64,000 bases of DNA from a virus (IMGVR_UViG_3300013121_000010:77903-141902); one strand, 5' to 3'; numbered from the stretch's first letter, positions 2,636 through 63,407 are shown. Numbers and translations are program-made. The notes: generated from the letters alone by a model not told the origin.

Positions 2636-3687
2636 GGTTGATTTTTAATTACTATTTTATTACCAGATTTTATTTTACGATTATGAGAATTGCTTTGCAC
2701 AAATATCTCATATCTATCTTTGTGTTTTTCTGGCAGCAACTTACATTCACTTGAATCAGGAAGTCCTAATAATTTCCTTGCTTGTTTTCCACCATATAAT
2801 TCTGTATTTTGTTTATCAAATATTAATATTTCTTTATTTGATTGAACAGTTTCAGGTTTTGTTAATTGATAAAATGCTAATCCAGCTTTATAAGGTCTTT
2901 TTGAAAATTGCTCTACAACTTCATTTATTTTACAATCTATCCTACAAGTAAATATACCATAAAGATGTGATAAATCATCTAATTTTTGTTGTATTTCTTT
3001 AGAATTAATGTTACTTAAATCTGGTTGAACATAAAACTTTCGTGTATTACTTACACCATAATTATTTACTGAACTATAAAAAGAATTAAGTCCTACAGAT
3101 GTTTGGTACTTTACAAATTCTACACCATCATTAGTTTGTTCCCATGCTAATATATTATCTCTGTCAACACCATATATTTCTAAGAATTCAATACCTGATT
3201 TTGGGCATTGAAATATAAGTGTGGTTTTAGAATTTTTACAATTAACAACTTCTTTAATTTGTTGAGAAAACAAACTTTTATAACGTTCTGAAGAACTATT
3301 TTCTGCTCCATCAGTTAAAACCATAACAACATGAATATCATCTTTATAAGCAGATGAAATCATCTTAATTCTATTAAGAACATTATAGGTAGCTGATATG
3401 ATAGCTGTTGAAGGACCATTAGCAATATACTTATTTTTAACATATTTAGCGTCGGAAACTAAACCTTCATAAACTTTTTGAGTTAAAAATTCAGAAGAAA
3501 AGAATGTGACTTCTAGTATATTATCTAAATTATCAGAAGCATGTTCATTAATTAAAGAATCTATTAATTCTTTTATTTTAGATTCTAAACCGTAATTTTT
3601 AATAGACATACTTTTATCAACCACTAAATGCAACCACTTTTTAATATTTTTTTTACTCATAATACTTACTCCATAACTCTTCTTCAT
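2632..3687 (-). CDS. von Willebrand factor A (vWA) domain protein
   Basis: VVMVLTDGAENSS MIDAS-like vWA signature. Confidence 0.5.
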   Translation of the reverse strand: MKKSYGVSIMSKKNIKKWLHLVVDKSMSIKNYGLESKIKELIDSLINEHASDNLDNILEVTFFSSEFLTQKVYEGLVSDAKYVKNKYIANGPSTAIISATYNVLNRIKMISSAYKDDIHVVMVLTDGAENSSSERYKSLFSQQIKEVVNCKNSKTTLIFQCPKSGIEFLEIYGVDRDNILAWEQTNDGVEFVKYQTSVGLNSFYSSVNNYGVSNTRKFYVQPDLSNINSKEIQQKLDDLSHLYGIFTCRIDCKINEVVEQFSKRPYKAGLAFYQLTKPETVQSNKEILIFDKQNTELYGGKQARKLLGLPDSSECKLLPEKHKDRYEIFVQSNSHNRKIKSGNKIVIKNQP

Positions 3688-4036: not shown

Positions 4037-4318
4037 TTATTTAATATCCTCTGTAAACAAACTTAGTAGACCTAAAACAGAATTAACTTTATATTTACTA
4101 AAATCAAATCCATTTTTAAAATTACAATTTGGGCAAGTAAAATTACCAGAACATATACAAAGACTATCAGTTACTAAACAATAACAGTTAATACATGCTA
4201 ATGTACTTATACAACCTGTATTATTTATTCTTGCACTATAAACAGAATTATTATACTCTTTAGCCTGTTCTTTGTTATATCCTACGTTTTTAAACGTTAG
4301 CATTTTGAATATCCGCAA
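4037..4318 (-). CDS. small Cys-rich hypothetical protein
   Basis: Many CxxC pairs; overlaps the 3-prime end of the RNR gene so may be spurious. Confidence 0.2.
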   Translation of the reverse strand: MRIFKMLTFKNVGYNKEQAKEYNNSVYSARINNTGCISTLACINCYCLVTDSLCICSGNFTCPNCNFKNGFDFSKYKVNSVLGLLSLFTEDIK

Positions 4319-19939: not shown

Positions 19940-20216
19940 AAATTGTAATCTCTTTTGAATTTGGAAGAATAATTAATCCATAATCCCATTCTTGTAATAA
20001 GTAAAAAATACACATTGATATATTTATATCATTTGCTATACTTTCACTTACTAAAATTTCAAACTCTCTAGTTATTTCACAAGCATTATTTTTAAGATAG
20101 TCCTCACAAAAACTTTGTAAGTCACCGTGCAAATATTTAGAACGCCATTCGTTTGGAAGCTTTTCTTCCATAAGTTTGGTTACATGAGCTAAAACTTCAC
20201 TAGACGCCTGCGGCAT
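19917..20216 (-). CDS. hypothetical protein
   Basis: ORF only. Confidence 0.3.
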   Translation of the reverse strand: MPQASSEVLAHVTKLMEEKLPNEWRSKYLHGDLQSFCEDYLKNNACEITREFEILVSESIANDINISMCIFYLLQEWDYGLIILPNSKEITIYENNNLR

Positions 20217-21261
20217 TTCTTATACTCCTTGAACTCAAATCTACAGGAACAAAATCTTCTTGAAATTCAAAGAAATTCTCATAACCACTAATAAGCTTTT
20301 CATTACCTCTTGGGAAAACAGCAAATTTGTTATTGTATATAAAACAATATTCAAGTAATTTACCTAATGATTCTTTATGTCTTATTATTCTATTAGCAGT
20401 ATCAACACCTACTAAATAGGTAGAATTTATTGGGTATAAGTGAAATTTATCTATAAATAAAGGAGCTTTAGTAAAACAAACAGCATTTATATTATTTTCT
20501 TTATACAAAACACTTCTATTTCTATAATCAAGATAATCAAGATTAGGTTTATCGAAATTTTGTACAGATATGTCTAACGTTACTTTTTGTTTAAATTTAT
20601 TAGCCGAATAATTTATTATAGCACGATGACCATCATGTAATGGATTAAAAGAACCTGAATATATAAGATTGCTGCATTTTTCACTATTTATAATAACTTG
20701 CTTAAGAGCAAACTGTTCTTTAGTATCAAAAAATAATCTTGGTGTATCTTCTTCGTGCTGGAAATAGAATTTTTCAGATTTTACACAATCCCATTCATCT
20801 TCTGATAAATGAAAAGTTCCCATTTCAAGACCATCTAGAATTACTTCACTTACTAATTCTTCTTCTTCTTGTCTGCTTCTATTTTCAAGCAATTTAAAAC
20901 TTGTACTACAAATAACTTCACGTTCTAAATATGTAATGTGAAATGAGTGTTCTCTACCAACCCTCTCTACATTACTAGAACGCAAACTTGCACAACAAGC
21001 AAGAGAAACGCACTCATTGAAATCATAACCCAAATCTAACATCTTTTGCATACCGGCCATTGCAAGTTGTCTTGATGTTAGTTGTGAATTATATTTTTCA
21101 GGTTTAAAACCAAGAAAATCATCTACACATTTTGTAGAATATGGAACGTAAGCACCGGCAAAATAGCTTGACGCACCACCATTTCTTAGTATTTTACCTA
21201 TAGCTTCTGTGCCACCGCCAGTAATAGTCAGAAAAAGTTTTTTATCCATAATTAATACCAT
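20200..21261 (-). CDS. nicotinamide-nucleotide adenylyltransferase domain protein (NatV-like)
   Basis: GSFNPLHDGHRAII HxGH nucleotidyltransferase motif in the C-terminal half; lies beside nadV. Confidence 0.65.
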   Translation of the reverse strand: MVLIMDKKLFLTITGGGTEAIGKILRNGGASSYFAGAYVPYSTKCVDDFLGFKPEKYNSQLTSRQLAMAGMQKMLDLGYDFNECVSLACCASLRSSNVERVGREHSFHITYLEREVICSTSFKLLENRSRQEEEELVSEVILDGLEMGTFHLSEDEWDCVKSEKFYFQHEEDTPRLFFDTKEQFALKQVIINSEKCSNLIYSGSFNPLHDGHRAIINYSANKFKQKVTLDISVQNFDKPNLDYLDYRNRSVLYKENNINAVCFTKAPLFIDKFHLYPINSTYLVGVDTANRIIRHKESLGKLLEYCFIYNNKFAVFPRGNEKLISGYENFFEFQEDFVPVDLSSRSIRNAAGV

Positions 21262-21525: not shown

Positions 21526-24006
21526 TTAAACCGAATAACTTTTCAATAATCTTTGCTTTATATAACTTAAATTTGTTGTTTTCTCAGAATATCCATTGTA
21601 AAATACTGTCTGTAAACAATCTAAACTGTTATATATTTTTTTACTTACAGTTTTATAACTCCCGTTTTCTTTAATGAGAGATAAACGCCCTCTTTTTGAA
21701 GTCTTAAAAGATTGTCCAACAGGCTCTTTATAAACATCATATTCTTCATCATCAATTGCAATACTACTACACTTTATAGCAAACCCCATTGTATCTCTAT
21801 CTAATTTTTGTAAAAGACCACCGCCACTTCCAAATGTTAAATTATCTAGTGACCACTTGTTTGTTAAACAAACTGTATCAAGAATATTGAGTAAACTATT
21901 TCTATTAATTCCATCACCCTGAATAACCCTTACTTTAGGATTTAGAACTTTAAATCCTTTGGAGTTAGTAGTGTAACCAAACTTTTCTCCTAGAACATTT
22001 AAGATTTTAGGTAGAACTTCAAGTGGGTCGCCAGAGTTACCACTAATAGATATTCTATGGTTTCTACGAACTATAATAGCCCCACTAGGAACAGTAACAC
22101 AATATACTTTACCATCATAATTTTTAAAAGTTTTTTCTATACCTTGCCCATCTATAAAATCTTGTTTTATAATATGAACAGTATGTACATCATTAAAAAT
22201 ATCTTTTCTATTATCTTTAGCTATACTGTATTTAGTTTTATACCCAGAAAAACAAGCTAATAATTGCACTATTTCAGCATTAATACCAATAGTTGTATCA
22301 TATTTAAATCTTTTATCACTTCTTCTTGTACCATCCCAATAAGAACACTCTTCTATAAATTGTTGACAGTATTTATAATCTATGTTATTAATAATATCAT
22401 TAACCCATTTAAAATCTTTAAAAATACTAAAAGGTACTTTTACATATATAGTTTTTTGATTCTCTCTTTCTTTTTCTTGATGTATAGAATATTCATAACA
22501 TCCTTCTTCACAAATTTTTATAATACGTTCTATTTTTCTTTGTTTGGTAAAATTAAATCTAATCTTAGTAAAACCATTTTTAAATGAATTTTCTTGATTA
22601 TGATTACTTTCATAAGAACCATCTGCTTGAAACGCTATTTTAATAGCGTGTTCTGGAGTAAATAAAATTGGATTTAAACAAGTTAATTTACCAGCCATTA
22701 TATGATTTCTATCATGGTAATACTTAATATCTTTAGCTTGTTTTACAAATATTTCCCCCTTTTTATTTTTAGTATAACATCTATGATTTGGAGTAACTAA
22801 TAAGTCTACCCCACGTTTATCATTAAAAATACTTACCATTTCGCCAATATAATCTTGGCATATGTATTTTACTGGTTTAACAAACTCTATATTACCATTA
22901 TTATATTGAGCTACATATGTATTAATATTGATACTGTTAAATAACTTCCATCCATCATTTGTTAATATTTCAGTTTTTTCATCATAACAGTCTGGCCTAA
23001 CTACAAGCACACCATCCCTATTTAAAACTTTATCTCTTAGTTCTCCACCCCAAATATTTTCACAAGCATTAAAAATGTCATAGCTATCACTAACACAAGC
23101 AACAAAACCTTCTGGATACACTTTAAGCATATTTCTGTATGCCTCTACTTCTCTGCTTTTACCCCACGAAGTAATAGTTGAATGTTCACTTGCCGGTATA
23201 GAGCTTCCACAACTGGAAGTTGTTTCATCAGCATAATATTCATCTAAAAGTTGAATACCTGCAAGAGTATCAGTACCTTTAAAATTTAATAGGTGAGCAG
23301 CAGCACCAATAGCTGCCGTTTCCATACTAGAAACACCTCTAAAACCGAAATCATGCAGTTTATAATCTACATAACTTTCTGGTTCGTCAGAACTAAGTCT
23401 ATGAAACTTTAAAAGTTTCTTTTTAAGGTAATAAGATTGAGAAGCTACAGTAATAGGATACCAAACTTGCATAAGTAAGGTTTCCAAATAATTTGTAAGC
23501 CAAAAGAACCTATCATCTGTATTTTCAATAATCATTAGGACATTTCCTACTGGAACTACTGAACCTTCTGGAACCGCGTTAATAATAACTGGTAAACGCC
23601 CACCGTATTCTTTATACATTTCAGCCCAACCTTGAGTGTTGAACTTGCAATTTGGCATATATTTAGAATGAAAAGCTTCAGCATCTTTAATATCATTCAT
23701 GTTAAATACATGACCAGTTAAATGCTTTTCAATTAAGTATTGTAGACCGAAAAATACGGTTTCTCCATTACCAAAATCATCTTTACCACCACGAGCTTCT
23801 AAATAAGAATAAATTCCTTTTGTTCCTGGTGGGTATTGCTCATAGTGTGATAACTTATAACCGTCTGTTTTAAGAATTAAGTTCACTGTAAAGTTCCTTT
23901 GCTGAATTTTCCCAACTAAACATTTTAGCAGTTTTAATGCCTTCGGCATTTTCAACGCCTGTCTTGCTCTGTAAGAGATTATACATGACTTCGGCAACGC
24001 TGTCAA
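21526..24006 (-). CDS. nadV: nicotinamide phosphoribosyltransferase (NadV/NAMPT) interrupted by an intein
   Basis: LILKTDGYKLSHYEQYPP N-terminus; the RPD-SGDP active-site motif is split by a 318-aa Hint insertion; the true start is probably an internal Met near 23949 (MPKALK...). Confidence 0.8.
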   Translation of the reverse strand: MTALPKSCIISYRARQALKMPKALKLLKCLVGKIQQRNFTVNLILKTDGYKLSHYEQYPPGTKGIYSYLEARGGKDDFGNGETVFFGLQYLIEKHLTGHVFNMNDIKDAEAFHSKYMPNCKFNTQGWAEMYKEYGGRLPVIINAVPEGSVVPVGNVLMIIENTDDRFFWLTNYLETLLMQVWYPITVASQSYYLKKKLLKFHRLSSDEPESYVDYKLHDFGFRGVSSMETAAIGAAAHLLNFKGTDTLAGIQLLDEYYADETTSSCGSSIPASEHSTITSWGKSREVEAYRNMLKVYPEGFVACVSDSYDIFNACENIWGGELRDKVLNRDGVLVVRPDCYDEKTEILTNDGWKLFNSININTYVAQYNNGNIEFVKPVKYICQDYIGEMVSIFNDKRGVDLLVTPNHRCYTKNKKGEIFVKQAKDIKYYHDRNHIMAGKLTCLNPILFTPEHAIKIAFQADGSYESNHNQENSFKNGFTKIRFNFTKQRKIERIIKICEEGCYEYSIHQEKERENQKTIYVKVPFSIFKDFKWVNDIINNIDYKYCQQFIEECSYWDGTRRSDKRFKYDTTIGINAEIVQLLACFSGYKTKYSIAKDNRKDIFNDVHTVHIIKQDFIDGQGIEKTFKNYDGKVYCVTVPSGAIIVRRNHRISISGNSGDPLEVLPKILNVLGEKFGYTTNSKGFKVLNPKVRVIQGDGINRNSLLNILDTVCLTNKWSLDNLTFGSGGGLLQKLDRDTMGFAIKCSSIAIDDEEYDVYKEPVGQSFKTSKRGRLSLIKENGSYKTVSKKIYNSLDCLQTVFYNGYSEKTTNLSYIKQRLLKSYSV
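22036..22989 (-). mobile_element. intein in NadV with a LAGLIDADG-like endonuclease domain
   Basis: VVRPD + C YDEKTEILTNDGW ... ISISGN + SGDPLEV; FQADGSY LAGLIDADG-like motif. Confidence 0.6.
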
Positions 24007-37673: not shown

Positions 37674-37675
37674 AG

Positions 37676-37746
37676 TACCCAGTAACAGAATCGAACTGTT
37701 TTAACTAAAATGTAAACTTAGTGTTTTACCATTAAACTAACCGGGC
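37676..37746 (-). tRNA. tRNA-Val (TAC)
   Basis: Acceptor GCCCGGT/ACTGGGT; D stem GTTT/AAAC; anticodon stem CTAAG/TTTAG with loop TTTACAT; T-arm AACAG-TTCGATT-CTGTT. Confidence 0.6.
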
Positions 37747-37752
37747 ATAGTT

Positions 37753-37830
37753 TAGAGAACAGTTAAACAGGTTAGTTGCTTACGCAACATTCAGTTACAA
37801 TGATTGAAGTAACCCATTTATTCACATCTA
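37753..37830 (-). repeat. conserved 78-nt element, copy 1 (second copy at 41185-41261), immediately upstream of a tRNA
   Basis: TAGAGAACAnTTAAACAGGTTAGT + hairpin + ATTGAAGTAACCCATTTATTCACATCTA; the hairpin is GTTGC-TTAC-GCAAC here and GTGC-TTTC-GCAC in copy 2, a compensatory change. Confidence 0.5.
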
Positions 37831-37842
37831 AACTACACTATC

Positions 37843-37870
37843 ATTATACCGCAAAAAAAATTTTTGTCAA
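37843..37870 (-). promoter_or_regulatory. sigma70-like promoter TTGACA-16-TATAAT (minus strand)
   Basis: Reverse complement reads TTGACAaaaattttttttgcggTATAAT. Confidence 0.5.
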
Positions 37871-37925
37871 GTGGGTGGGGTGATTTATTTTTCTTGGTGT
37901 ATAAAATACTAACCGGAGAAAACGT

Positions 37926-38636
37926 ATGACACCCCTCTTTACACAACAAGAATATAAAATATGTAAGTTACACGAAAAGTTACCTTTAGAGTGTAAACAA
38001 TGTAAAAATAAATTTTTCCAAACAAAAAAACAAATAAATAAAGCTTATAGATTTTTATCTGGTGAGTATTTAGCGAACGGTATTACTTGTGATTTTTGTT
38101 CTAAAAAATGTTCTGGAAAACATAAAACTTTAATTAATAGGACTTATATTAACTGTAAAAACTGTAATAAGATAATTTATCTACAAAATAAAGCTGTAAA
38201 AACAAATAATTTTTGTTCTAAATCATGTGCTGTAACATATAATAATAAAAATAAAAAATATGGAACTAGGGTAAGTAAACTTGAAATTTGGCTACAAAAC
38301 CAATTAAAAATTAAATTTCCTAATCTAGTATTTGAATTCAACAAAAAAGAATATATAAAATCTGAACTTGATATTTATATACCTTCTTTGGGCTTAGCTT
38401 TTGAACTTAATGGAATCTTTCATTACGAACCAATTTACGGAGAAGAAAAACTAAAGTCTATACAAAATAATGATTTTAGAAAATTCCAAGCGTGTTTGGA
38501 AAACAATATAGAATTATGTATTATAAACACATCAAATCAAAAACATTTTACAGTAAAAAGTGGCCAAAAATATCTTGAAATTATCTATAATATCATTAAT
38601 GTTAAGTTAAAGGGAGATATATCAGAATCGAACTGA
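37926..38636 (+). CDS. free-standing endonuclease-like protein (DUF559/Vsr-like fold) with a Cys-rich N-terminus; probable homing endonuclease
   Basis: The only plus-strand gene in the tRNA cluster; ELDIYIPSLGLAFELNGIFHYE resembles the DUF559 motif V-D-F...IEvDG..H; RBS ggagaaaacgtATG; its 3-prime end overlaps tRNA-His. Confidence 0.45.
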   Translation: MTPLFTQQEYKICKLHEKLPLECKQCKNKFFQTKKQINKAYRFLSGEYLANGITCDFCSKKCSGKHKTLINRTYINCKNCNKIIYLQNKAVKTNNFCSKSCAVTYNNKNKKYGTRVSKLEIWLQNQLKIKFPNLVFEFNKKEYIKSELDIYIPSLGLAFELNGIFHYEPIYGEEKLKSIQNNDFRKFQACLENNIELCIINTSNQKHFTVKSGQKYLEIIYNIINVKLKGDISESN

Positions 38637-38685
38637 CACCTTTTCATTCACAGTGAACTATGCAGACCTCTACACTAATATCTCC
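38612..38685 (-). tRNA. tRNA-His (GTG)
   Basis: 8-bp acceptor GGAGATAT/ATATCTCC, consistent with the His G-1 position; anticodon loop CTGTGAA; T-arm GTCAG-TTCGATT-CTGAT. Confidence 0.55.
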
Positions 38686-38692
38686 ATACAAG

Positions 38693-38766
38693 TGGGCAAC
38701 TTGAGATTTGAACTCAAACTTTACTGCTTTTGAGACAGTTGCTTCTGCCAATTGAGCGAGTTACCC
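38693..38766 (-). tRNA. tRNA, anticodon tentatively CAA
   Basis: Acceptor GGGTAAC/GTTGCCC; T-arm TTGAG-TTCAAAT-CTCAA; anticodon stem ACTGT/GCAGT with loop CTCAAAA; short variable arm. Confidence 0.4.
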
Positions 38767-38782
38767 GTTTCTTATTATAAAA

Positions 38783-38857
38783 TTCGGGGGTAAGGAATCG
38801 AACCTTAGCATTCTTCGTTCAAAGCGAAGTAGGATTACCAACAACCCCAGCCCCCGA
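38783..38857 (-). tRNA. tRNA-Gln (TTG)
   Basis: Anticodon stem CTTCG/CGAAG with loop CTTTGAA; T-arm TAAGG-TTCGATT-CCTTA. Confidence 0.55.
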
Positions 38858-38858
38858 G

Positions 38859-38929
38859 TACCCACTACAGGAATCGAGCCTGTTTCTTAACTTTGTCACA
38901 GTTACATTCTACCATTGAACTAAGCGGGT
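38859..38929 (-). tRNA. tRNA-Val (GAC)
   Basis: Anticodon stem TAACT/AGTTA with loop GTGACAA; T-arm ACAGG-CTCGATT-CCTGT. Confidence 0.5.
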
Positions 38930-38950
38930 GTGTTATTTTCAATAACTTAG

Positions 38951-39023
38951 TGACTGCTCTCAGAATCGAACTGAGTTCCGAAGTGCTTCAAACTTCTGCT
39001 ATAACCATATCAGCTAAACAGTC
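38951..39023 (-). tRNA. tRNA-Phe (GAA)
   Basis: D stem GCTG/TAGC; anticodon stem GAAGT/ACTTC with loop TTGAAGC; T-arm CTCAG-TTCGATT-CTGAG. Confidence 0.6.
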
Positions 39024-39029
39024 ATTTGT

Positions 39030-39195
39030 ATTTCTTTAATGTCTAATACTAAAGACAGGGGCGGTAGGCCCTCCACCAGTTAGATAAATCTAACAGTGAC
39101 GCATACGGGTACTGCCCCCGTCTATTCTGGTTGAAAGCCAGACTACCTCACTTGATGTATAATGCGCCGTCTGTGGGACAGTTTCCATCCCACTT
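39030..39195 (-). ncRNA. GC-rich structured RNA immediately downstream of the Ro60/Rsr gene; candidate Y-RNA-like ncRNA with its own promoter
   Basis: About 50% GC in a 30% GC genome; hairpins GUGGGA-UGGAAACUG-UCCCAC, ACGGG-GGCAGUA-CCCGU and GUUAGAU-UUAUCUAAC; no credible ORF; the promoter at 39201-39229 fires into it. Confidence 0.4.
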
Positions 39196-39200
39196 GTTTT

Positions 39201-39229
39201 ATTATACCAGGAACTTAGCGTTCTGTCAA
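39201..39229 (-). promoter_or_regulatory. sigma70-like promoter TTGACA-17-TATAAT (minus strand) inside the 3-prime end of the Ro60 gene
   Basis: Reverse complement reads TTGACAgaacgctaagttcctggTATAAT. Confidence 0.55.
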
Positions 39230-40780
39230 GTCCGACATTTCCTTTGCATATCTTAAAATTCCGTCGCTCCATCCACCTAAGATATAAGTTCTGTCGTATA
39301 CTTCTGGCATAATAGTATCAGTATATCCAGCGACCTGCACAAGATATACATTTACCTTTGGATTGACGTTCTTTCTATAGGTGTTCACCAACATAGGAAC
39401 ATCAATACAATATGAATGATACCATAAATACTTTGAGTATTCATCTGGGTTCCTACCATAAAGTCCACCATGACCAGCTTGCATATCACTATAGATGAAA
39501 ACATTATCCCAATGTTCAGCTTTAGCTATAGCATCACGCCAAAACAACCAAATTCCATTTTCAGTTGATTTACCAATTCTGTTAGCTAAACTATTAGCAT
39601 TTTTTAAATCATCAAAAATACTAGAATTTTTGCGAATACTGAAAGTTTCCAGTTTATCACCAAAAACACCTAAATATCCATCATTAGAAACCTTACCAGT
39701 AATAATACCAGTTAAGTTCGCAATTTCAGATACCTTAACAGAACCATATTGACTAGTAGTTGTACCTTGTGCCGAACCACTATTATCGCAAAGCGACATA
39801 GTACGTCCTTTAAACTGAGGTAGTGAATGCAAGGAAATATTCAGGCAGTTTTCAATTGCATCCAAAACACTACCAGGAGCATTTACAGCTTTCAGTTCTT
39901 TGTAAGCCGTCCAATACCTAAACGGCAGTTGCTTACCTTTTTCGGCAGTTTTAACCAACTTATCTAGAACAACTTCCATATTAGCATTATTTTCAACAAA
40001 ATTTCTCAAATTGCGAAGTAATGCCATGTGCCCCATAACTGGAACGCATTCATCCCAACTTTTACCTTGAGAACGCATACTTTCCCAAGTTTCAGTATTT
40101 TTCAAAGTACCCTTTACAAGCCCATCAATAGCTGGTGTAGGAACAGGGTGAACCAAGTTAATAACATCTACTGTCTTAACTTCACGATTCTCCATTTTGT
40201 ACTTAGCAAGTTCATACTCACTAAATGTTGTTAAAACATAAGCTAAGGCTCGCTTTAAAGAGCTAGGGATAGCCACGCCTTTGAATGCGGACTTGTGATA
40301 AGCCACACAAACAGCAGGTTCATCCGCCCTCTTAACTATTTCCTTTGCATATCTGCGTATTAATTGAGTGCCTTTACTACCTTTATGGTTTGCAGCCCTT
40401 ACCAAAATAACTTGTGGTGTAGTTCTGATATTATCAGTATTACGCAAATGAGCGGCAAGTTCTAGAGTTTGTTTAACACTAAAATCTAAAGCCTTATCAA
40501 TACACTTCTCAAGAGTATTCTTAGCAGTATCACCTTCTAGCTCTACCAAAACCTTACCAAGTTGCTTAGTTAGGTCAAACTTAACCTTAAAAGTAGGAGA
40601 AGCCTTTTGAGTTTCTCCATAATAAGTTGGTTCGCCAAAGAAACAGCTTGCTGCTGCAACACGAAGTTTATGAATTGGATTGGAAATATCAAAGGATGTT
40701 CCATCCATAAAATTACGATGAGAGTTCTTATGAACTCTCTTTTCGTTTAGTGAGTTTACTCTTTTAGAATTTACAGCCAT
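39215..40780 (-). CDS. rsr: Ro60/Rsr orthologue (TROVE domain plus C-terminal vWA with MIDAS)
   Basis: N-terminal TROVE-like ...AAASCFFGEPTYYGE...; C-terminal vWA with DxSGS MIDAS (LCDNSGSAQG); 521 aa, matching Ro60 domain order and size. Confidence 0.6.
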   Translation of the reverse strand: MAVNSKRVNSLNEKRVHKNSHRNFMDGTSFDISNPIHKLRVAAASCFFGEPTYYGETQKASPTFKVKFDLTKQLGKVLVELEGDTAKNTLEKCIDKALDFSVKQTLELAAHLRNTDNIRTTPQVILVRAANHKGSKGTQLIRRYAKEIVKRADEPAVCVAYHKSAFKGVAIPSSLKRALAYVLTTFSEYELAKYKMENREVKTVDVINLVHPVPTPAIDGLVKGTLKNTETWESMRSQGKSWDECVPVMGHMALLRNLRNFVENNANMEVVLDKLVKTAEKGKQLPFRYWTAYKELKAVNAPGSVLDAIENCLNISLHSLPQFKGRTMSLCDNSGSAQGTTTSQYGSVKVSEIANLTGIITGKVSNDGYLGVFGDKLETFSIRKNSSIFDDLKNANSLANRIGKSTENGIWLFWRDAIAKAEHWDNVFIYSDMQAGHGGLYGRNPDEYSKYLWYHSYCIDVPMLVNTYRKNVNPKVNVYLVQVAGYTDTIMPEVYDRTYILGGWSDGILRYAKEMSDLTER

Positions 40781-41109
40781 TTTTAAATCTCCTAATCCTA
40801 GATTTCTAACCTTTCTTTAATAAGTTTTGTAAAATAATCGAATGCTATCTGTTTAGCTTTTTCAATACCTTCATCTACTGGACAAAGAACAATTTTTGTT
40901 TTTATAACTAGAAATTGGGTCCATTACCTTATAACATTCAGAAAGAGTATGTGGATACCATCCTTTAAAGATTTTCATATTATCTAACCTTTCATTTTAA
41001 AAGATATTCTTAGAGAACATAACTATAAAGTGTTTTTAATCCCAATTTTTTGATGGACGGGATTTTCAATTTTAAATGAAGTAACTCTATATCTCACATC
41101 TAAAAATAA

Positions 41110-41184
41110 GTGGACCTTGAGGGAGTCGCACCCTCTATCAGAATTTGCAGGATTCCAAATTTACCTCTAAAAAGGCCCATTTTG
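41110..41184 (-). ncRNA. tRNA-like RNA with non-canonical T-loop TGCGACT and anticodon-like loop CCTGCAA (Cys-like GCA); lies upstream of rsr
   Basis: Acceptor GGGCCTT/AAGGTCC; T-arm GAGGG-TGCGACT-CCCTC (G in place of the universal U55); C at position 33 of the anticodon loop. Confidence 0.45.
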
Positions 41185-41261
41185 TAGAGAACAATTAAAC
41201 AGGTTAGTGCTTTCGCACGACTAATTAATTCTAATTGAAGTAACCCATTTATTCACATCTA
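41185..41261 (-). repeat. conserved 78-nt element, copy 2
   Basis: See copy 1 at 37753-37830. Confidence 0.5.
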
Positions 41262-41265
41262 CAAG

Positions 41266-41338
41266 CACCAATAACGGGAATCGAACCCGCCGCGATAGGA
41301 TAGACAGTCCTACATCACCCCCAGATGAACTTATTGGT
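41266..41338 (-). tRNA. tRNA-Asp (GTC)
   Basis: Anticodon stem TAGGA/TCCTA with loop CTGTCTA; T-arm GCGGG-TTCGATT-CCCGT. Confidence 0.5.
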
Positions 41339-41433: not shown

Positions 41434-41546
41434 ATAAAATTAAGCTAGTAGGTCAGGTAACGCTCCTGCAACAACGGATTAACAGTCCGCCCGAAAAACT
41501 TCTTTCATCCTACTAATATGAGAGGAATCCTCTCATTTGTTCTTTC

Positions 41547-41575
41547 ATTATACCGGAAGCTTTCCTTCCTGTCAA
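41547..41575 (-). promoter_or_regulatory. sigma70-like promoter TTGACA-17-TATAAT (minus strand) with a structured roughly 95-nt leader before tRNA-Leu
   Basis: Reverse complement reads TTGACAggaaggaaagcttccggTATAAT; the leader holds hairpin GAGAGGAUUCCUCUC and a long-range stem TAGTAGG...CCTACTA. Confidence 0.55.
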
Positions 41576-42247: not shown

Positions 42248-42347
42248 GTTTTCTTAGGTATTCCTTTTAATTTTTATTCCCTAAGTGGCAAAACTTTAGT
42301 ATTAGAAGGCTTCTGTGACCAACATAACTAAAATCTTGTCAAAGTGT

Positions 42348-42420
42348 TAGATACTGGAGTCGCACCAATCAGTCCTACCTTATGAGGGTTGGTTGAGCCT
42401 ACGCCCATCTGGCTTGTTCA
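42348..42420 (-). ncRNA. tRNA-Met (CAT)-like with T-loop TGCGACT and a mismatched acceptor stem
   Basis: Anticodon stem AACC/GGTT with loop CTCATAA; T-arm ATTGG-TGCGACT-CCAGT; paralogue at 44488-44560. Confidence 0.4.
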
Positions 42421-42423
42421 TTC

Positions 42424-42452
42424 ATTATACCGGAAGCATCGCTTCCTGTCAA
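42424..42452 (-). promoter_or_regulatory. sigma70-like promoter TTGACA-17-TATAAT (minus strand)
   Basis: Reverse complement reads TTGACAggaagcgatgcttccggTATAAT. Confidence 0.55.
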
Positions 42453-42529: not shown

Positions 42530-42610
42530 GCAGGTTTGTGACAAATCGAATGCCCTAGCTTTCGCAACTGTTTTGGAGGCAGTTTCCCATCCCACTGGGG
42601 AGCAAACCTG
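42530..42610 (-). tRNA. tRNA-Trp (CCA) with an 8-bp terminal helix and a long variable region
   Basis: Terminal stem CAGGTTTG/CAAACCTG; D stem CCCC/GGGA; anticodon loop CTCCAAA; paralogue at 44561-44640 has terminal stem CATATTTG/CAAATATG (compensatory). Confidence 0.45.
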
Positions 42611-43230
42611 TATTACATTGGAAGGATTATTGATTACCTTCAACCATCCTTAAATCCGATATTGTTCAGCCATACACTTATAGAGTAGCTAGTTCTATAA
42701 TTAACGTGTAGCTCGTTTGGTTACAAGCAAAGGAAAGCAGACTTCAACATTGTTCTTATTCCTTACCACCCTCACATCAGGTTGGCCAACCCAATGCTAT
42801 TAGTGCTTTATACCGAATTTACATTCTGAACGTTAGTAGGACACTTTTCAGTGTACTCCCAACTGTATTTAGGGCAGTCAACCCTATTTTCTACCACAAT
42901 GTAAGTAGCCCCGCATGGAAGTCGAACCATGTTCCCAAGATTAACCTACTACTATTAGTTTCCTAATCAGAAATATTTTTATTTCTTTGTAGTCTGGACT
43001 ATATCATCAACCAAATTGGTTGTTTCGCGTTTAGTCTCTGAGGAACCCTTTCGGTTTCCTGCTGATTGCCCAATATTTTAGATTGTCACGATTGTAATCG
43101 TACTAAAATCTCTAAGGGGTTTCCAGCATATAGCGAAATTCATTTTACATATTACTATGTAAACGCTCTTATTTTATGGAATCAAGTCTTGTGCTAATCC
43201 AGTTAAAGCTTCGGAGCCATTTTCTTCTTA

Positions 43231-43259
43231 CATTATATCAGATGCTTCGCATCTTGTCA
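43231..43259 (-). promoter_or_regulatory. sigma70-like promoter TTGACA-17-TATAAT (minus strand) firing into the ORF-free 42610-43225 region
   Basis: Reverse complement reads TTGACAagatgcgaagcatctgaTATAAT. Confidence 0.55.
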
Positions 43260-43553
43260 AGTTCTCTCTATTGTAAAACTAATTTCTCTCAATTTGTTAA
43301 AATTTGCTGTATCAAAATTCTTAATAAACTTATCAACTTTATTACAATCTTTAATAGAAGTAACTTTATATCTCTTCTTAGTATATCTATCTATAAATAT
43401 TTCAATAGACCCAGAATCACCAACAATTGCTGTTTTATGTAGCTTTTCTTTAATAGCTAAAGCAACTGGGCAAAATTGACATATATCCAGTGACTTTATT
43501 TTATTTTTAGCCTGTTCAATATGCTTACGCTTAACTTCAATTTTAATACTCAT
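43257..43553 (-). CDS. CPIALAIKEK-motif family protein (paralogue A2)
   Basis: KRKHIEQAKNK...CQFCPVALAIKEKLHK; three intact paralogues plus one decayed copy. Confidence 0.5.
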   Translation of the reverse strand: MSIKIEVKRKHIEQAKNKIKSLDICQFCPVALAIKEKLHKTAIVGDSGSIEIFIDRYTKKRYKVTSIKDCNKVDKFIKNFDTANFNKLREISFTIERT

Positions 43554-44448: not shown

Positions 44449-44477
44449 ATTATAACAGAGGGAAAACCTCTTGTCAA
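44449..44477 (-). promoter_or_regulatory. sigma70-like promoter TTGACA-17-TATAAT (minus strand)
   Basis: Reverse complement reads TTGACAagaggttttccctctgtTATAAT. Confidence 0.55.
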
Positions 44478-44487
44478 GTGGCAGATA

Positions 44488-44560
44488 TTGGAGTCGCACC
44501 AATCAAATTAACCTTATGAGGGTTAGTCGAGCCTTCGCCCATCTGCAAGCATATTTGTGA
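44488..44560 (-). ncRNA. tRNA-Met (CAT)-like with T-loop TGCGACT (paralogue of 42348-42420)
   Basis: Anticodon stem AACC/GGTT with loop CTCATAA; T-arm ATTGG-TGCGACT-CCAAT. Confidence 0.4.
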
Positions 44561-44640
44561 GGAATCGAACCCCTTAGCGTTTAGCAACTGTTTTGGAGGC
44601 AGTTTCCCATCCCACTGGGAAGCAAATATATGAGCCGTAA
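44561..44640 (-). tRNA. tRNA-Trp (CCA), paralogue of 42530-42610
   Basis: D stem TCCC/GGGA; anticodon loop CTCCAAA; T-loop TTCGATT. Confidence 0.45.
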
Positions 44641-45419: not shown

Positions 45420-45448
45420 ATTATAGCAGATGGTTTACCATCTGTCAA
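45420..45448 (-). promoter_or_regulatory. sigma70-like promoter TTGACA-17-TATAAT (minus strand) upstream of tRNA-Leu
   Basis: Reverse complement reads TTGACAgatggtaaaccatctgcTATAAT. Confidence 0.55.
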
Positions 45449-45450
45449 GG

Positions 45451-45521
45451 GGCCGAAGGGGTGAATCGAACACCCGTAGTAAATTTACAAGATTTACGTC
45501 CTACCACTGAACGACTCCGGC
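45451..45521 (-). tRNA. tRNA-Thr (TGT)
   Basis: Acceptor GCCGGAG/CTTCGGC; anticodon stem TAAAT/ATTTA with loop CTTGTAA; T-arm GGGTG-TTCGATT-CACCC. Confidence 0.55.
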
Positions 45522-46116: not shown

Positions 46117-46392
46117 CTAAACAAACTTCCTTACATTAAATTGTTCTCTTAATAAGAGAAGTAAATTTTCAGTAATGTATTGAGAAGATTCAGCTTCCAT
46201 CACAGCCATTACAGGTTCATCAGGCAGAAAATTAATAATGCGATTTAAAACATCTTCAAGCTCCTTTTTATTTTCAGAAGCAGCTTGATAAGCGGCAGTT
46301 TCTAAAACTGCAATAAACTGTTTAGAAGAAAGACAATGATTACATTTACCACCACTGTCTAAACAATGAATGCACTTAATTGTATTTTTCAT
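46117..46392 (-). CDS. hypothetical protein
   Basis: CxxC...CxxC N-terminus. Confidence 0.35.
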   Translation of the reverse strand: MKNTIKCIHCLDSGGKCNHCLSSKQFIAVLETAAYQAASENKKELEDVLNRIINFLPDEPVMAVMEAESSQYITENLLLLLREQFNVRKFV

Positions 46393-46734
46393 AAGTGGAC
46401 CGGGCGGGTACTGCCCCCGCGTACTAAAATAAATTTAAAGATTTGAATAATATACAGGTTTCTTTAAGATTTTAAGGTAATCTTATAACCTACCTTACGA
46501 TTTGAATTTTAACTATTAAAGGTTTTAAGTTAAAACCACTCTAATTAAAGAGCAAATGAGTAATCGACGTTTTTGTTGCTCTTACGAGCAACTTTAGTGC
46601 TTGTTGCACTCAAACCACGAACACTGAACATACTATCGTTTGCTGTTACTTTTTTGACTGTTTTTAGGTAGCCTCAGCCTCTACCACCTGCCAGCACTTT
46701 AAATTTAAGCTAGGCGAATCTATTTCCGGCCCAT

Positions 46735-62306: not shown

Positions 62307-63407
62307 TCAATGGTATTCAGTACCCCATTTCCTATTCAAATAGTCAAAACTTATATTTTTTAATTGTCTACGACTAAAACATTTATTGTGAGTAATTGCA
62401 CTTTGTTCAAATTTACTTGTAATAACTATACCTTCTCTAATTTGCTCAGGGTATAAAGTAGACTTTCCATCAGTAAGACTTTCTACAATTTCATGACTAA
62501 ATAAACCATCATAAAGTACAGGAACGTGATTTACTCCAAATTGGTTAAATAACTTAATCTTGTTATGATAAGATAGGTATGAGCCATTAAATGTAATATC
62601 AAAAGCAAGGAAATTAACCTCACCATTCTTTAACCCGTAAGTCAAATCTTGAATACCGCTTCCAAACATTTCACCAAATAGTACGGCACCCCTAGGAAGT
62701 TCAGTTTCACTTTCGTATGTAGAACCATCAATTTCATCTATATGTTTATCTATACCAATAAGATGAGCTAGTAAGGCTTTTACATTATCAGTTAGGTGCT
62801 TCCAGTAAACAGACTCTACGCCATTTTTATCAAATCTACGGCGACGTACATTATGAGAACCAGCAGCCCAAGTCCATACACCATCTTCTACTATAAGACC
62901 TAACCTTAAGTTTTGCCCGTGAACCTTTTCCGTTATAATTACACTATCAATACCAGGTTCAAACAGATTTGGGTAGTGCTTATAATTTTCCATATCATAA
63001 TATCTATGAAATAGAGAACAATCACGTTCAGCATCACCGCAAACCTGCTTTACAGGCGGCTCATACTTTTTAATTTCAAGTAAGTTGGCTACATCGTCCC
63101 CCTCTTTCATACTTTTTAATTCTGGACGCAAATCAAGAGACATTACAGCCCCATAAGACTTCTTCCCCCTAAGGTTAGCACAAAGAACACGCCCCTTAGA
63201 AAGATACTTAGTAATCTTCATATCGTCACTAAGTGAACTTGGTAGAATAGAATCTGGTGGGAAATAAACTACTAATTCTCCTTGCTTATGTTTACCTTTA
63301 GGAACACAGCTTTCCCAACCTTTAATGACAGCAACTTCTAAAGAGTCAGCATTAGGATGAGGAACTATCTTATCAATCTTACAAATTTCTACTATTAAAC
63401 TACTCAT
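62307..63407 (-). CDS. RNA ligase (Rnl2/DraRnl-like nucleotidyltransferase) with an N-terminal tRNA-binding-type OB domain
   Basis: N-terminal KIVPHPNADSLEVAVIKG...ELVVYFPPDSI matches the Trbp111/CsaA-type tRNA-binding OB motif; lysine adenylyltransferase motif I TEKVHGQN. Confidence 0.6.
   Translation of the reverse strand: MSSLIVEICKIDKIVPHPNADSLEVAVIKGWESCVPKGKHKQGELVVYFPPDSILPSSLSDDMKITKYLSKGRVLCANLRGKKSYGAVMSLDLRPELKSMKEGDDVANLLEIKKYEPPVKQVCGDAERDCSLFHRYYDMENYKHYPNLFEPGIDSVIITEKVHGQNLRLGLIVEDGVWTWAAGSHNVRRRRFDKNGVESVYWKHLTDNVKALLAHLIGIDKHIDEIDGSTYESETELPRGAVLFGEMFGSGIQDLTYGLKNGEVNFLAFDITFNGSYLSYHNKIKLFNQFGVNHVPVLYDGLFSHEIVESLTDGKSTLYPEQIREGIVITSKFEQSAITHNKCFSRRQLKNISFDYLNRKWGTEYH

What the first reader, a model, noticed from the sequence alone, without database searches (positions are those of the whole stretch)
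37753..41261. Conserved 78-nt element found twice directly upstream of tRNA or tRNA-like genes, with a covarying internal hairpin
The two copies (37753-37830 and 41185-41261) share TAGAGAACA(a/g)TTAAACAGGTTAGT and ATTGAAGTAACCCATTTATTCACATCTA. The hairpin between these blocks differs but stays paired (GTTGC-TTAC-GCAAC versus GTGC-TTTC-GCAC). It could be a processed leader or small RNA, a binding platform (one copy is adjacent to rsr), or a promoter-proximal regulatory module. A similar hairpin, GTTGCTC-TTAC-GAGCAAC, also occurs at 46575.
Basis: seen in the sequence. Interest (0 to 1): 0.5.

Follow-up and report, generated by a model that had tools for sequence, protein, structure and literature searches.

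The report
Phage Y RNAs beside Ro60 gene
The repeated 78-nt element is most likely a small non-coding "Y RNA", the RNA partner of the Ro60/Rsr protein encoded next to it; it occurs three times in this phage, is probably cut out of tRNA-containing transcripts, and is a new member of a known RNA class rather than a new kind of element.

Summary
The two copies (37753-37830, 41185-41261) share exact 24- and 28-nt blocks, where chance predicts none. A third, diverged copy lies at 41005-41108. All tRNAs, the tmRNA and rsr are on the minus strand, so the element must be read there. Each copy folds as a terminal stem, an internal loop (5' UGUGAA/UGUGAG, 3' GUUC), a second stem, and an apical domain starting UUACUUCA. 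The central hairpin is capped by GNRA loops.

ORF 39215-40780(-) is a TROVE/Ro60 (Rsr) protein. The same RNA architecture sits beside rsr, on the same strand, in at least seven other phage lineages, including Bacillus phage G, Arthrobacter phage Atuin and a crAss-like phage. There some copies carry the tRNA-like domain that defines YrlA.

Across 27 copies both stems covary: 90% paired versus 52% in shuffles, with all 16 pairs showing double changes. A covariance model built without the window copies finds w2 (31 bits, E=1e-5) and w1 (27 bits, E=2e-4) as the top window hits; w3 is not recovered as a full hit.

Best reading: Y RNA-like (Yrl, YrlB-type) Rsr ligands released from tRNA-Yrl-rsr transcripts by tRNA processing. 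This is a new member of a known kind, of moderate-to-low interest. Transcription, processing and Rsr binding are inferred, not shown.

The parts
37747..37838 (-). Stem 1 is GUGUAGUUUAGA/UCUAAACUAU, with loop strands 5' UGUGAA and 3' ACUGUUC. Stem 2 is UAAAUGGGUUA/UAACCUGUUUA (11 bp). The apical domain is (UUA)CUUCA plus two hairpins, the second being GUUGC-GUAA-GCAAC.
   Evidence: Exact blocks. The MFE fold of the extended form is -25.9 kcal/mol; the core has z = -2.3. CM R2, built without the window copies, gives 26.8 bits, E=1.6e-4; nhmmer gives 11.1 bits; descriptor score is 23. The 5' end lies 5-7 nt after the -10 box of promoter 37870..37843. The 3' end abuts tRNA-Val, whose first base is 37746.
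41182..41264 (-). It has the same loop strands and stem 2 as w1. Stem 1 is UUGUAGA/UCUACAA. The apical hairpins are rewritten, and the second is GUGC-GAAA-GCAC.
   Evidence: CM R2 gives 31.0 bits, E=1.2e-5, the top hit in the window; nhmmer gives 12.2 bits. It starts the base after the tRNA-Asp 3' end (41265) and ends 3 nt before the tRNA-like gene (41178).
41005..41108 (-). Yrl copy w3 (new, diverged). Stem 1 is UAUUUUUAGA/UCUAAGAAUA, with loop strands 5' UGUGAGA and 3' GUUAUGUUC. Stem 2 is UAUAGAGU/ACUUUAUA, which covaries with w1/w2. The apical domain is UACUUCA plus two hairpins. It lies in the leader of the rsr mRNA.
   Evidence: nhmmer gives 10.3 bits, the third-best window hit, with the next at 4.9 bits. 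Descriptor score is 18. CM R2 gives only a partial hit (9.5 bits, E=7.5), attributable at least in part to its 45-nt apical region against the model's 30 masked positions.
39215..40780 (-). rsr: a 521-aa TROVE-domain Ro60/Rsr ortholog, the presumed protein partner.
   Evidence: Pfam TROVE, E=6.4e-10. PDB 9KOP/9L5Y (Thermus phage phiLo Ro60), E=1.6e-15. 39% identity to the Bacillus phage G TROVE protein gp540.
37843..37870 (-). Consensus sigma70 promoter (TTGACA-N16-TATAAT, 12/12) driving w1 and tRNA-Val.
41547..41575 (-). Consensus sigma70 promoter (12/12). It drives, in order: tRNA-like(GUU), tRNA-Leu, tRNA-Asp, w2, tRNA-like(UGC), w3, rsr.
   Evidence: No terminator-like site on the minus strand between it and rsr.
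37675..37746 (-). tRNA-Val(UAC). Its 5' end would set the 3' end of w1 through RNase P cleavage (inferred).
41265..41338 (-). tRNA-Asp(GUC). Its 3' end abuts the 5' end of w2.
41111..41178 (-). Non-canonical tRNA-like gene between w2 and w3. It has G3:U70, the anticodon loop CCUGCAA (UGC) and the T-loop UGCGACU, and is probably an odd tRNA-Ala.
   Evidence: Cloverleaf-like MFE fold. Not called by ARAGORN or Rfam.

Best explanation
The three copies (w1, w2, w3) are most likely genes for small non-coding Y RNA-like RNAs (Yrl), the RNA partners of the phage's Ro60/Rsr protein.

Proposed mechanism:
1. Strong sigma70-type promoters transcribe long minus-strand precursors in which Yrl RNAs alternate with tRNAs. 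One such unit continues into rsr. (Promoter matches and gene order are shown; transcription is inferred.)
2. Cleavage at the neighbouring tRNAs frees RNAs of about 83-104 nt whose 5' and 3' ends pair. RNase P would act at tRNA 5' ends and the 3'-processing enzymes at tRNA 3' ends. For w1 the 5' end would be the transcription start itself. (Inferred from the 0-3 nt spacing to tRNA ends.)
3. The Rsr ring binds the conserved internal loop between stem 1 and stem 2, mainly through the 5' strand UGUGAA. This occupies the position of the GNCGAA/CGAA Rsr-binding motif of known bacterial and phage Y RNAs. (Inferred by analogy.)
4. The apical domain, with the invariant UACUUC followed by variable hairpins, acts as the effector or gating module. 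For example, it could tether a host nuclease such as PNPase. (Speculative; by analogy with D. radiodurans RYPER and phage phiLo.)

The window copies lack the tRNA-like domain, so they are of the YrlB/Yrn2 type rather than YrlA. w3 has no downstream tRNA. It may stay on the rsr mRNA leader, where Rsr binding could feed back on rsr expression (speculative).
For: Protein partner. The ORF at 39215-40780(-) is a TROVE/Ro60 protein. w3 ends 225 nt and w2 402 nt upstream of its start, and w1 starts about 1.4 kb downstream of its stop. All are on the rsr strand. This meets the published search criterion of within 4 kb and on the same strand (PMC4201824).

Architecture. All three copies fold as terminal stem, internal loop, second stem and apical domain. 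This is the stem-bulge-stem layout described for phiLo Yrl1/Yrl2, which bind phage Ro60 in vitro (PMC12135203).

Comparative evidence. The same element lies next to rsr, on its strand, in unrelated phages:
- Metagenomic loci L003 (2 copies), L007 (4 copies), L009 (4 copies) and L010 (2 copies).
- Bacillus phage G, with 5 tandem copies plus one YrlA-type copy in unannotated DNA upstream of TROVE gp540.
- crAss-like phage csAssE-Sib, with 3 copies.
- Arthrobacter phage Atuin, with 6 copies interleaved with tRNAs.

Link to YrlA. Several of these copies carry T-arm, stem-loop and D-arm tRNA-like domains behind the same 5' module (L007b, Atuin A2/A3, phage G at L013 ~782). Atuin A4 has loop strands that match the window's: 5' UGUGAA and, on the 3' side, the same CUGUUC.

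Covariation. In a 27-copy anchored alignment, 90.3% of cells are paired, versus 52% in shuffles and about 40% in slid registers. All 16 pairs show double changes. The covariation score is 0.94 versus 0.21, with 0 of 500 shuffles reaching it.

Independent model tests:
- CM R2, built only from the 24 non-window copies, ranks w2 (31.0 bits, E=1.2e-5) and w1 (26.8 bits, E=1.6e-4) first in the whole window; the next hit scores 14.6 bits.
- On 190 kb of other loci, all 12 R2 hits at E<0.03 are rsr-adjacent copies on the rsr strand. One of them (L020 2179-2248) was not in the training set.
- An nhmmer profile of the non-window 5' halves ranks w2, w1 and w3 as the top three window hits.
- A motif-plus-helix descriptor gives 3 window hits scoring >=18, versus 0.025 expected.

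Processing. Y RNAs co-transcribed with tRNA are known: D. radiodurans Yrn2, tRNA-Asp and Yrn1 form one precursor. The ends of w1 and w2, and the 5' end of w3, coincide with a predicted transcription start or with tRNA ends.
Against: - There is no expression, processing or binding data for this phage; everything rests on comparative sequence analysis.
- The literal published motif GNCGAA(N0-1)G, or CGAA, is absent. The window has UGUGAA/UGUGAG. In phiLo Yrl2, a C-to-U change in CGAA lowered affinity about 3-fold.
- No Rfam family matches the element, even at E<=10.
- None of the window copies has the tRNA-like domain that Chen et al. found in at least one Y RNA per species.
- w3 is only weakly recovered by the covariance model.
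- The family was not found within 3 kb of rsr in several other Rsr-encoding phages: phiLo, a Desulfovibrio phage, HGTV-1, a Vibrio phage, and Listeria P100.
- The excerpt alignment used for covariation chose stem 2 partners, and partly the 3' anchor, by best pairing. This inflates the paired fraction somewhat.
Confidence: 0.8

Rival explanations
1. The element is a cis-acting leader or spacer structure of tRNA precursors. It would help or time RNase P and 3' processing, or protect the precursor, and would have no function as a free RNA and no link to Rsr.
For: w1 and w2 sit directly 5' of a tRNA or tRNA-like gene, and w2 and w3 sit directly 3' of one. Atuin copies are also wedged between tRNAs.
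Against: - In L003, L007, L009, L010 and phage G the copies form tandem arrays directly upstream of rsr, with no tRNA between or after them.
- w3 is followed by rsr, not by a tRNA.
- Of the 26 tRNAs ARAGORN calls in the window, only tRNA-Val(UAC) and tRNA-Asp adjoin a copy, and all three copies lie within 1.4 kb of rsr.
- Some family members carry YrlA-type tRNA-like domains.
Confidence: 0.07
2. The element is chiefly a cis-regulatory Rsr operator on the rsr mRNA, giving autoregulation of translation or stability. The other copies would be decoys or duplicates without an effector role.
For: w3 lies in the rsr leader with no downstream tRNA to release it. In most related loci the arrays lie immediately 5' of rsr on the same transcript.
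Against: - w1 sits about 1.4 kb downstream of rsr under its own consensus promoter, followed by tRNA-Val.
- Atuin copies lie downstream of rsr.
- L003 has a terminator-like hairpin with a U-run between the array and rsr, which suggests separate small RNAs.
- This reading overlaps with the Y RNA reading rather than excluding it.
Confidence: 0.08
3. It is a DNA-level repeat: a promoter or operator module, a recombination or homing site, or a miniature mobile element spread within the tRNA cluster.
For: w1 and w2 are near-identical over 52 nt of flanking blocks. The cluster also holds other repeats, a group I intron, and a possible homing-endonuclease ORF on the opposite strand.
Against: - The promoters are separate, well-defined consensus sites.
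- There are no terminal inverted repeats or target duplications.
- Across phages the primary sequence of the stems changes while pairing is kept, which is selection on RNA structure, not on DNA sequence.
- Strand and position relative to rsr are conserved.
Confidence: 0.02
4. It is a decayed tRNA or another known structured RNA, such as a ribozyme or riboswitch, that happens to be duplicated.
For: It lies in a dense tRNA cluster, which also holds several odd tRNA-like genes that standard tools miss.
Against: - There is no cloverleaf, T-loop or D-loop.
- No tRNA, ribozyme or riboswitch family matches at E<=10, and ARAGORN is silent.
- The conserved positions (the loop strands and UACUUC) are not those of tRNA.
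Confidence: 0.03

Closest known systems
YrlB (S. Typhimurium, M. smegmatis) and Yrn2 (D. radiodurans): the smaller bacterial Y RNAs bound by Rsr
   Same: They are encoded next to rsr on the same strand. Their 5' and 3' ends pair into a long stem carrying the presumed Rsr site, and they have no full tRNA-like domain. They occur alongside other Y RNAs. Yrn2 is made from a polycistronic precursor together with a tRNA (PMC4201824).
   Different: Sequence is not alignable with anything available here. The window RNAs have UGUGAA where these have GNCGAA. [quoted passage not shown] Binding is untested here.
YrlA (bacterial and phage Y RNA with tRNA-like effector domain; Chen et al. 2014; structure PDB 6CU1)
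   Same: The 5' module is collinear: terminal stem, a purine-rich motif at about nt 8-13, a second ('anticodon-like') stem, and YUAY at about nt 22-25 (UUAC here). In phage G, Atuin and L007, YrlA-type RNAs with this same 5' module sit beside tRNA-less copies like the window's.
   Different: The T-arm, acceptor-like stem-loop and D-arm domain that defines YrlA is absent from all three window copies. Two short hairpins replace it.
Yrl1/Yrl2 of Thermus phage phiLo (PMC12135203)
   Same: They are phage-encoded, lie upstream of the phage Ro60 gene, and have stem, internal bulge and stem architecture with the binding motif in the bulge. The window's Rsr is detectably homologous to phiLo Ro60 (E=1.6e-15).
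   Different: phiLo RNAs carry CGAA. No UACUUC-type alignment to the window element could be made in the phiLo upstream region. The phiLo RNAs are not flanked by tRNAs.
Metazoan Y RNAs (Rfam RF00019)
   Same: They share the overall logic: a Ro60-binding bulged stem formed by the two RNA ends, plus a variable effector loop.
   Different: There is no sequence or covariance-model similarity. They are Pol III transcripts with a La-binding U-tail, and they are not linked to tRNA.

Membership tests
Bacterial/phage Y RNA (Rsr-associated Yrl RNAs) | Encoded within about 4 kb of a Ro60/Rsr (TROVE) gene, on the same strand (search criterion of Chen et al. 2014) | tested here: met
   rsr is at 39215-40780(-). 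w3 lies 225 nt and w2 402 nt upstream, and w1 about 1.4 kb downstream, all on the minus strand. Family hits in nine independent lineages are all on the rsr strand.
Bacterial/phage Y RNA (Rsr-associated Yrl RNAs) | 5' and 3' ends pair into a long stem interrupted by a bulge or internal loop that holds the Ro60 site | tested here: met
   MFE folds of all three copies. Both stems covary across 27 copies.
Bacterial/phage Y RNA (Rsr-associated Yrl RNAs) | Conserved 5'-strand motif GNCGAA(N0-1)G / CGAA | tested here: inconclusive
   The window has UGUGAA/UGUGAG at the equivalent position. Relatives have AGCGG, UGCGG, AGCGC, AGUGA or UGGUGA. The position and the purine-rich G-Y-G-R core are shared, but the literal motif is not matched.
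Bacterial/phage Y RNA (Rsr-associated Yrl RNAs) | Physical binding to Rsr, and Rsr-dependent accumulation | not testable with these tools
   Needs EMSA, RIP or CLIP, and Northern blots with and without rsr.
Phage Yrl family defined here (stem1, NGYGR loop, stem2, UACUUC) | Scores significantly with a covariance model or HMM built from rsr-adjacent copies of other phages | tested here: met
   R2 gives w2 31.0 bits (E=1.2e-5) and w1 26.8 bits (E=1.6e-4), the same range as real members of other loci (20-37 bits). w3 is found only by nhmmer (10.3 bits, third-best window hit) and by the descriptor.
YrlA subfamily | tRNA-like effector domain (T-arm, acceptor-like stem-loop, D-arm) | tested here: not met
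   There is no T-loop or D-loop in w1-w3, and no tRNA-model hit on them. YUAY at nt 22-25 is present (UUAC).
Rfam families (Y_RNA, tRNA, ribozymes, riboswitches, leaders) | Covariance-model score at or near the gathering threshold | tested here: not met
   No hit overlaps any of the three copies at E<=10.
Sigma70 promoter / intrinsic terminator | -35/-10 hexamers, or a GC-rich hairpin followed by a U-run, within the element | tested here: not met
   The strong promoters lie outside the element. The only promoter-like match inside a copy is a weak 9/12 site in w3, and no terminator-like site falls in any copy.

The most novel reading that the evidence does not exclude
The window RNAs may represent a minimal, tRNA-less class of phage Y RNA with three distinctive properties:
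1. Their ends are made entirely by the tRNA-processing machinery acting on flanking tRNAs ('tRNA-punctuated' Y RNAs).
2. Their UACUUC apical motif is the real effector contact. It is invariant in all 27 copies examined, from phages of Firmicutes, Actinobacteria and Bacteroidetes hosts, and it has not been described as such.
3. The third copy stays on the rsr leader, so that Rsr autoregulates its own synthesis.
Probability: 0.3. Interest if true: 0.5.

Novelty: new member of a known kind. Interest (0 to 1): 0.33.

Why it matters
Phage Ro60/Rsr proteins are widespread in large phages and often sit inside tRNA clusters. They have recently been linked to hijacking of host PNPase (phiLo, PMC12135203) and to countering a defence system (Bas63 gp130, PMC11482910). 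Their RNA partners are usually unannotated, or are mis-annotated as tRNAs, as in csAssE-Sib.

Recognising this element as the Yrl partner has three uses:
- It gives a concrete RNA to test with this phage's Rsr.
- It supplies a simple signature: terminal stem, NGYGR loop, second stem, UACUUC. That signature found unannotated copies in Bacillus phage G, Atuin and crAss-like phages.
- It shows that tRNA-less Y RNAs can be interleaved with tRNAs in a way that suggests release by tRNA processing.

It does not change the known picture of Ro60-Y RNA biology.

Tried and rejected
- Megablast of the region against GenBank phages found no match.
- An exact-pattern scan of IMG/VR with TAGATGTGA-N8-GTTACTTCA gave only two chance hits inside coding regions, with no tRNAs nearby.
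- Rfam at gathering threshold and at E<=10 found nothing on the element.
- Ribozymes (hammerhead and others), riboswitches and tRNA remnants were considered and rejected: no core motifs and no model hits.
- The first covariance model (R1), built from a 50-column excerpt, failed on real sequence because the 30-100 nt apical insert is penalised. This was solved by masking the apex with 30 N (R2). The length of 30 was chosen knowing the apical sizes of w1 and w2. That choice affects sensitivity, not specificity.
- MAFFT alignments of full-length copies mis-align the 3' halves. Covariation was therefore counted on an anchored, gapless excerpt.
- The upstream region of Thermus phage phiLo could not be aligned to this family.
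- Listeria phage P100 was checked because a relative (CKA15) makes abundant unannotated RNAs upstream of an Rsr-like gene. It has no member of this family.
- No members were found within 3 kb of rsr in the Desulfovibrio phage, HGTV-1 or Vibrio phage loci, and only a weak, unconfirmed nhmmer match in the 634-kb uncultured phage.

Full report
**1. The observation**

The two copies are real. The 28-nt block ATTGAAGTAACCCATTTATTCACATCTA occurs exactly twice (37803-37830, 41234-41261). The 24-nt block TAGAGAACARTTAAACAGGTTAGT also occurs exactly twice (37753-37776, 41185-41208). Neither block matched in any of 100 dinucleotide shuffles. The hairpin between the blocks differs but remains paired.

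ARAGORN and Rfam place all 26 tRNA genes and a tmRNA (46393-46732) on the minus strand. The element therefore has to be read as its reverse complement:

5' UAGAUGUGAAUAAAUGGGUUACUUCA...GUUGC-GUAA-GCAAC...UAACCUGUUUAACUGUUCUCUA 3'

On that strand the variable hairpin is capped by GNRA tetraloops (GUAA, GAAA), and the element does lie 5' of tRNA-Val(UAC) and 5' of a tRNA-like gene. A relaxed pattern search, TAGATGTGA-N8-GTTACTTCA, revealed a third, diverged copy at 41011-41102. That gave 3 hits against 0.09 expected.

**2. Anatomy and context**

All three copies give the same minimum-free-energy architecture:
- Stem 1 is a terminal stem of 7-12 bp formed by the two ends.
- An internal loop follows, with 5' strand UGUGAA (UGUGAGA in w3) and a 3' strand ending GUUC.
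- Stem 2 has 8-11 bp.
- The apical domain begins UUACUUCA and contains two short hairpins.

w3 keeps both stems through different sequences: UAUAGAGU/ACUUUAUA versus UAAAUGGGUUA/UAACCUGUUUA.

The ORF at 39215-40780(-) is a TROVE-domain protein, that is, Ro60/Rsr. Pfam gives E=6.4e-10. The crystal and cryo-EM entries of Thermus phage phiLo Ro60 match at E=1.6e-15.

Four perfect 12/12 sigma70 consensus promoters lie on the minus strand. They imply the following transcription units:
- P(41575..41547) drives tRNA-like(GUU), tRNA-Leu, tRNA-Asp, w2, tRNA-like(UGC), w3, a short ORF and rsr.
- P(39229..39201) drives a 165-nt structured RNA followed by five tRNAs.
- P(37870..37843) drives w1 and tRNA-Val.

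The element ends line up with these features. The w1 terminal stem starts 5-7 nt after the -10 box, which is the expected start site, and ends at 37747, the base before tRNA-Val. w2 begins the base after tRNA-Asp and ends 3 nt before the tRNA-like gene. w3 begins 2 nt after that gene's discriminator base.

**3. Related sequences**

Nothing close exists in GenBank phages or, by exact pattern, in IMG/VR. I therefore fetched loci that encode relatives of the Rsr protein and looked at their flanks.

Elements with the same layout lie beside rsr on its strand in the following:
- L003/L004/L006/L008 (Rsr 56% identical): two tandem copies directly upstream.
- L007 (54%): four tandem copies. One of them (L007b) contains a T-arm, a stem-loop and a D-arm.
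- L009/L005 (43%): four copies.
- L010 (42%): two copies, one with an embedded tRNA-like domain that the Rfam tRNA model scores at 43 bits.
- Bacillus phage G (39%): five tandem copies in the 1-kb unannotated gap upstream of TROVE gp540, plus a YrlA-type copy further upstream.
- crAss-like phage csAssE-Sib: three copies, two of them annotated as 'tRNA-Tyr' and 'tRNA-Lys'.
- Arthrobacter phage Atuin: six copies interleaved with tRNA genes on both sides of rsr. Two carry the T-arm, acceptor-like stem-loop and D-arm order typical of YrlA. One (A4) has the window's 5' loop strand UGUGAA and the same 3' CUGUUC.

Across 27 copies the invariant features are a G in the 5' loop strand, the hexamer UACUUC just after stem 2, and a C at the end of the 3' loop strand. 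The 5' loop strand varies as UGUGA, AGUGA, AGCGG, UGCGG, AGCGC or UGGUGA.

**4. Tests**

(a) Covariation. I cut each copy into fixed-length pieces around sequence anchors. The pieces were 8 nt before the loop motif, the motif itself, 8 nt before UACUUC, the partner strand, and 5+8 nt around the 3' anchor. This gave a gapless 50-column alignment.
- 90.3% of the 432 cells are standard pairs, versus 52.1% after shuffling partners and 38-48% with slid registers.
- All 16 pairs show double (compensatory) changes.
- The covariation score is 0.94 versus 0.21, and 0 of 500 shuffles reach it.
- Caveat: stem 2 partners, and partly the 3' anchor, were picked by best pairing. The stem 1 register follows from conserved anchors.

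(b) Independent profile. An HMM of the 5' halves of the 24 non-window copies ranks w2, w1 and w3 (12.2, 11.1 and 10.3 bits) as the three best hits in the window, with the next at 4.9 bits. Every hit with E<0.5 in any locus is on the rsr strand.

(c) Independent covariance model. R2 was built from the 24 non-window copies with the variable apex masked by 30 N.
- It scores w2 at 31.0 bits (E=1.2e-5) and w1 at 26.8 bits (E=1.6e-4), the top two hits in the 64-kb window on both strands. The next hit scores 14.6 bits.
- On 190 kb of other loci, all 12 hits at E<0.03 are rsr-adjacent copies. These include Atuin 2179-2248, which was not in the training set. Control loci gave nothing better than E=0.14.
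- w3 is only partly aligned (9.5 bits), at least partly because of its 45-nt apex.

(d) Descriptor search. A motif-plus-two-helices descriptor gives three window hits with score >=18, against 0.025 expected in first-order Markov simulations.

(e) Rfam. No family matches the element, even at E<=10.

**5. What it is**

The literature describes exactly this situation.
- Bacterial and phage Y RNAs (YrlA, YrlB, Yrn1/2) are encoded within 4 kb of rsr on the same strand. Usually several occur per locus. Their 5' and 3' ends form a long stem. A conserved 5'-strand motif, GNCGAA(N0-1)G, is thought to contact Rsr, and a conserved YUAY sits at nt 22-25 (PMC4201824).
[quoted passage not shown] - Thermus phage phiLo Ro60 binds two upstream Yrl RNAs with stem, bulge (CGAA) and stem architecture. 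With host PNPase they form a RYPER-like complex (PMC12135203).

In w1, counting from a 7-bp stem 1, UGUGAA occupies nt 8-13 and UUAC occupies nt 22-25. This is collinear with YrlA. The window copies lack the tRNA-like domain, so they are not YrlA. They correspond to the smaller YrlB/Yrn2-type partners. The link to YrlA is direct, because phage G, Atuin and L007 carry YrlA-type and tRNA-less copies with the same 5' module side by side.

**6. How it most likely works**

Shown by the sequence:
- the position and strand relative to rsr;
- the promoters;
- the covarying structure;
- the family relationship.

Inferred:
- transcription as tRNA-Yrl(-rsr) precursors;
- release of w1 and w2 by RNase P and tRNA 3'-end processing;
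- binding of Rsr to the internal loop, mainly through the 5' strand.

Speculative:
- the UACUUC-led apex recruits or gates an effector such as host PNPase;
- w3 has no tRNA after it, remains on the rsr leader, and mediates feedback.

**7. Rivals**

- A pure tRNA-precursor leader is unlikely. In most related loci the copies form arrays in front of rsr without tRNAs. In the window, only two of the 26 called tRNAs adjoin a copy, and every copy lies near rsr.
- A DNA-level repeat or promoter module is contradicted by the compensatory changes and by the separate consensus promoters.
- A decayed tRNA or a known ribozyme or riboswitch is contradicted by the folds and by Rfam.
- A purely cis-regulatory rsr operator cannot explain w1, or the Atuin copies downstream of rsr. 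It may still be an added role of w3.

**8. Novelty and verdict**

This is a new member of a known kind. Y RNA-like RNAs beside phage rsr genes have been known since 2014 and were shown to bind a phage Ro60 in 2025. Several points may be modestly new:
- the tRNA-less, multi-copy form;
- the UGUGAA variant of the loop motif;
- the invariant UACUUC;
- the tight interleaving with tRNAs;
- unannotated copies in phage G, Atuin and crAss-like phages, some of them annotated as tRNAs.

Confidence that the element is an Rsr-partner Y RNA is about 0.8. Interest is about 0.33.

Noticed in passing
window 10316-46103, minus strand (e.g. 41547-41575, 42424-42452, 43232-43264, 44449-44481, 45420-45452): There is a family of at least 10 near-consensus sigma70 promoters (CTTGACA-N17-TATAAT). 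Their 17-nt spacers contain inverted repeats that covary between copies, for example GGAAG-GAAAG-CTTCC, AGATGC-GAAG-CATCT and AGAGG-TTTTC-CCTCT. A hairpin-forming promoter spacer is unusual, and I have no explanation for it.
   Followed up: partly
window 41111-41178(-), 41440-41515(-), 42342-42411(-), 44476-44545(-): Four tRNA-like genes are missed by ARAGORN and Rfam but fold as cloverleaves. One has a UGC anticodon, G3:U70 and the T-loop UGCGACU, so it is likely an odd tRNA-Ala. One has a GUU anticodon and the T-loop AGCGUUA. Two are 84%-identical copies with a CAU anticodon loop and the T-loop UGCGACU. Ala and Asn are absent from the 26 called tRNAs.
   Followed up: partly
window 39030-39193(-): A 165-nt strongly folding RNA (-53 kcal/mol, z = -2.3) lies between the consensus promoter that overlaps the rsr stop codon and tRNA-Phe. 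It has no Rfam match and does not belong to the Yrl family defined here. It could be another Rsr-associated or tRNA-like RNA.
   Followed up: partly
window 46320-46364(-): A 45-nt hairpin, GUUUAGACAGUGGU...UUUCUUCUAAAC, lies just 3' of the tmRNA. It shares the w1 stem 1 sequence and a CAGUGG loop strand but lacks stem 2 and UACUUC. It is the best non-Yrl hit of both covariance models (15.5 and 14.6 bits, E about 0.3). It may be a truncated fourth copy or a chance match.
   Followed up: partly
window 42979-43193(-): A group I intron scores 67.8 bits in Rfam, above the gathering threshold of 50. It was seen only in the E-value scan. The interrupted gene was not determined.
   Followed up: no
window 37926-38636(+): This is the only plus-strand ORF inside the minus-strand tRNA cluster. 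It encodes 236 aa, has a Cys-rich N-terminal half, and has no Pfam family. It may be a homing endonuclease inserted between tRNA groups.
   Followed up: no
window 42560-42606 and 44580-44626: A 47-nt segment that is 96% identical to the 5' half of tRNA-Trp is duplicated about 2 kb away, outside any called tRNA (family D12).
   Followed up: no
window 4297-8349(-), 21526-24006(-), 20200-21261(-), 62307-63407(-): The context marks a large phage with auxiliary metabolism. It encodes a ribonucleotide reductase large subunit interrupted by an intein with a LAGLIDADG endonuclease, a NAMPT, a cytidylyltransferase-like (possibly NMNAT) protein, and an RNA ligase.
   Followed up: no
L019 (phage csAssE-Sib, OR575929) 2558-2630 and 2703-2776; L013 (Bacillus phage G, NC_023719) 1941-3001: In csAssE-Sib, the annotated 'tRNA-Tyr' and 'tRNA-Lys' just upstream of the Ro sixty-related gene are embedded in Yrl-type stems, so they are likely Y RNAs rather than tRNAs. 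In phage G, the 1-kb unannotated gap upstream of the TROVE gene holds five tandem Yrl copies.
   Followed up: partly
L003 5925-5990: In the closest Rsr relative, a terminator-like hairpin with a U-run lies between the Yrl array and the rsr start codon. This hints at attenuation between Y RNA and rsr expression. No equivalent is seen in the window.
   Followed up: no
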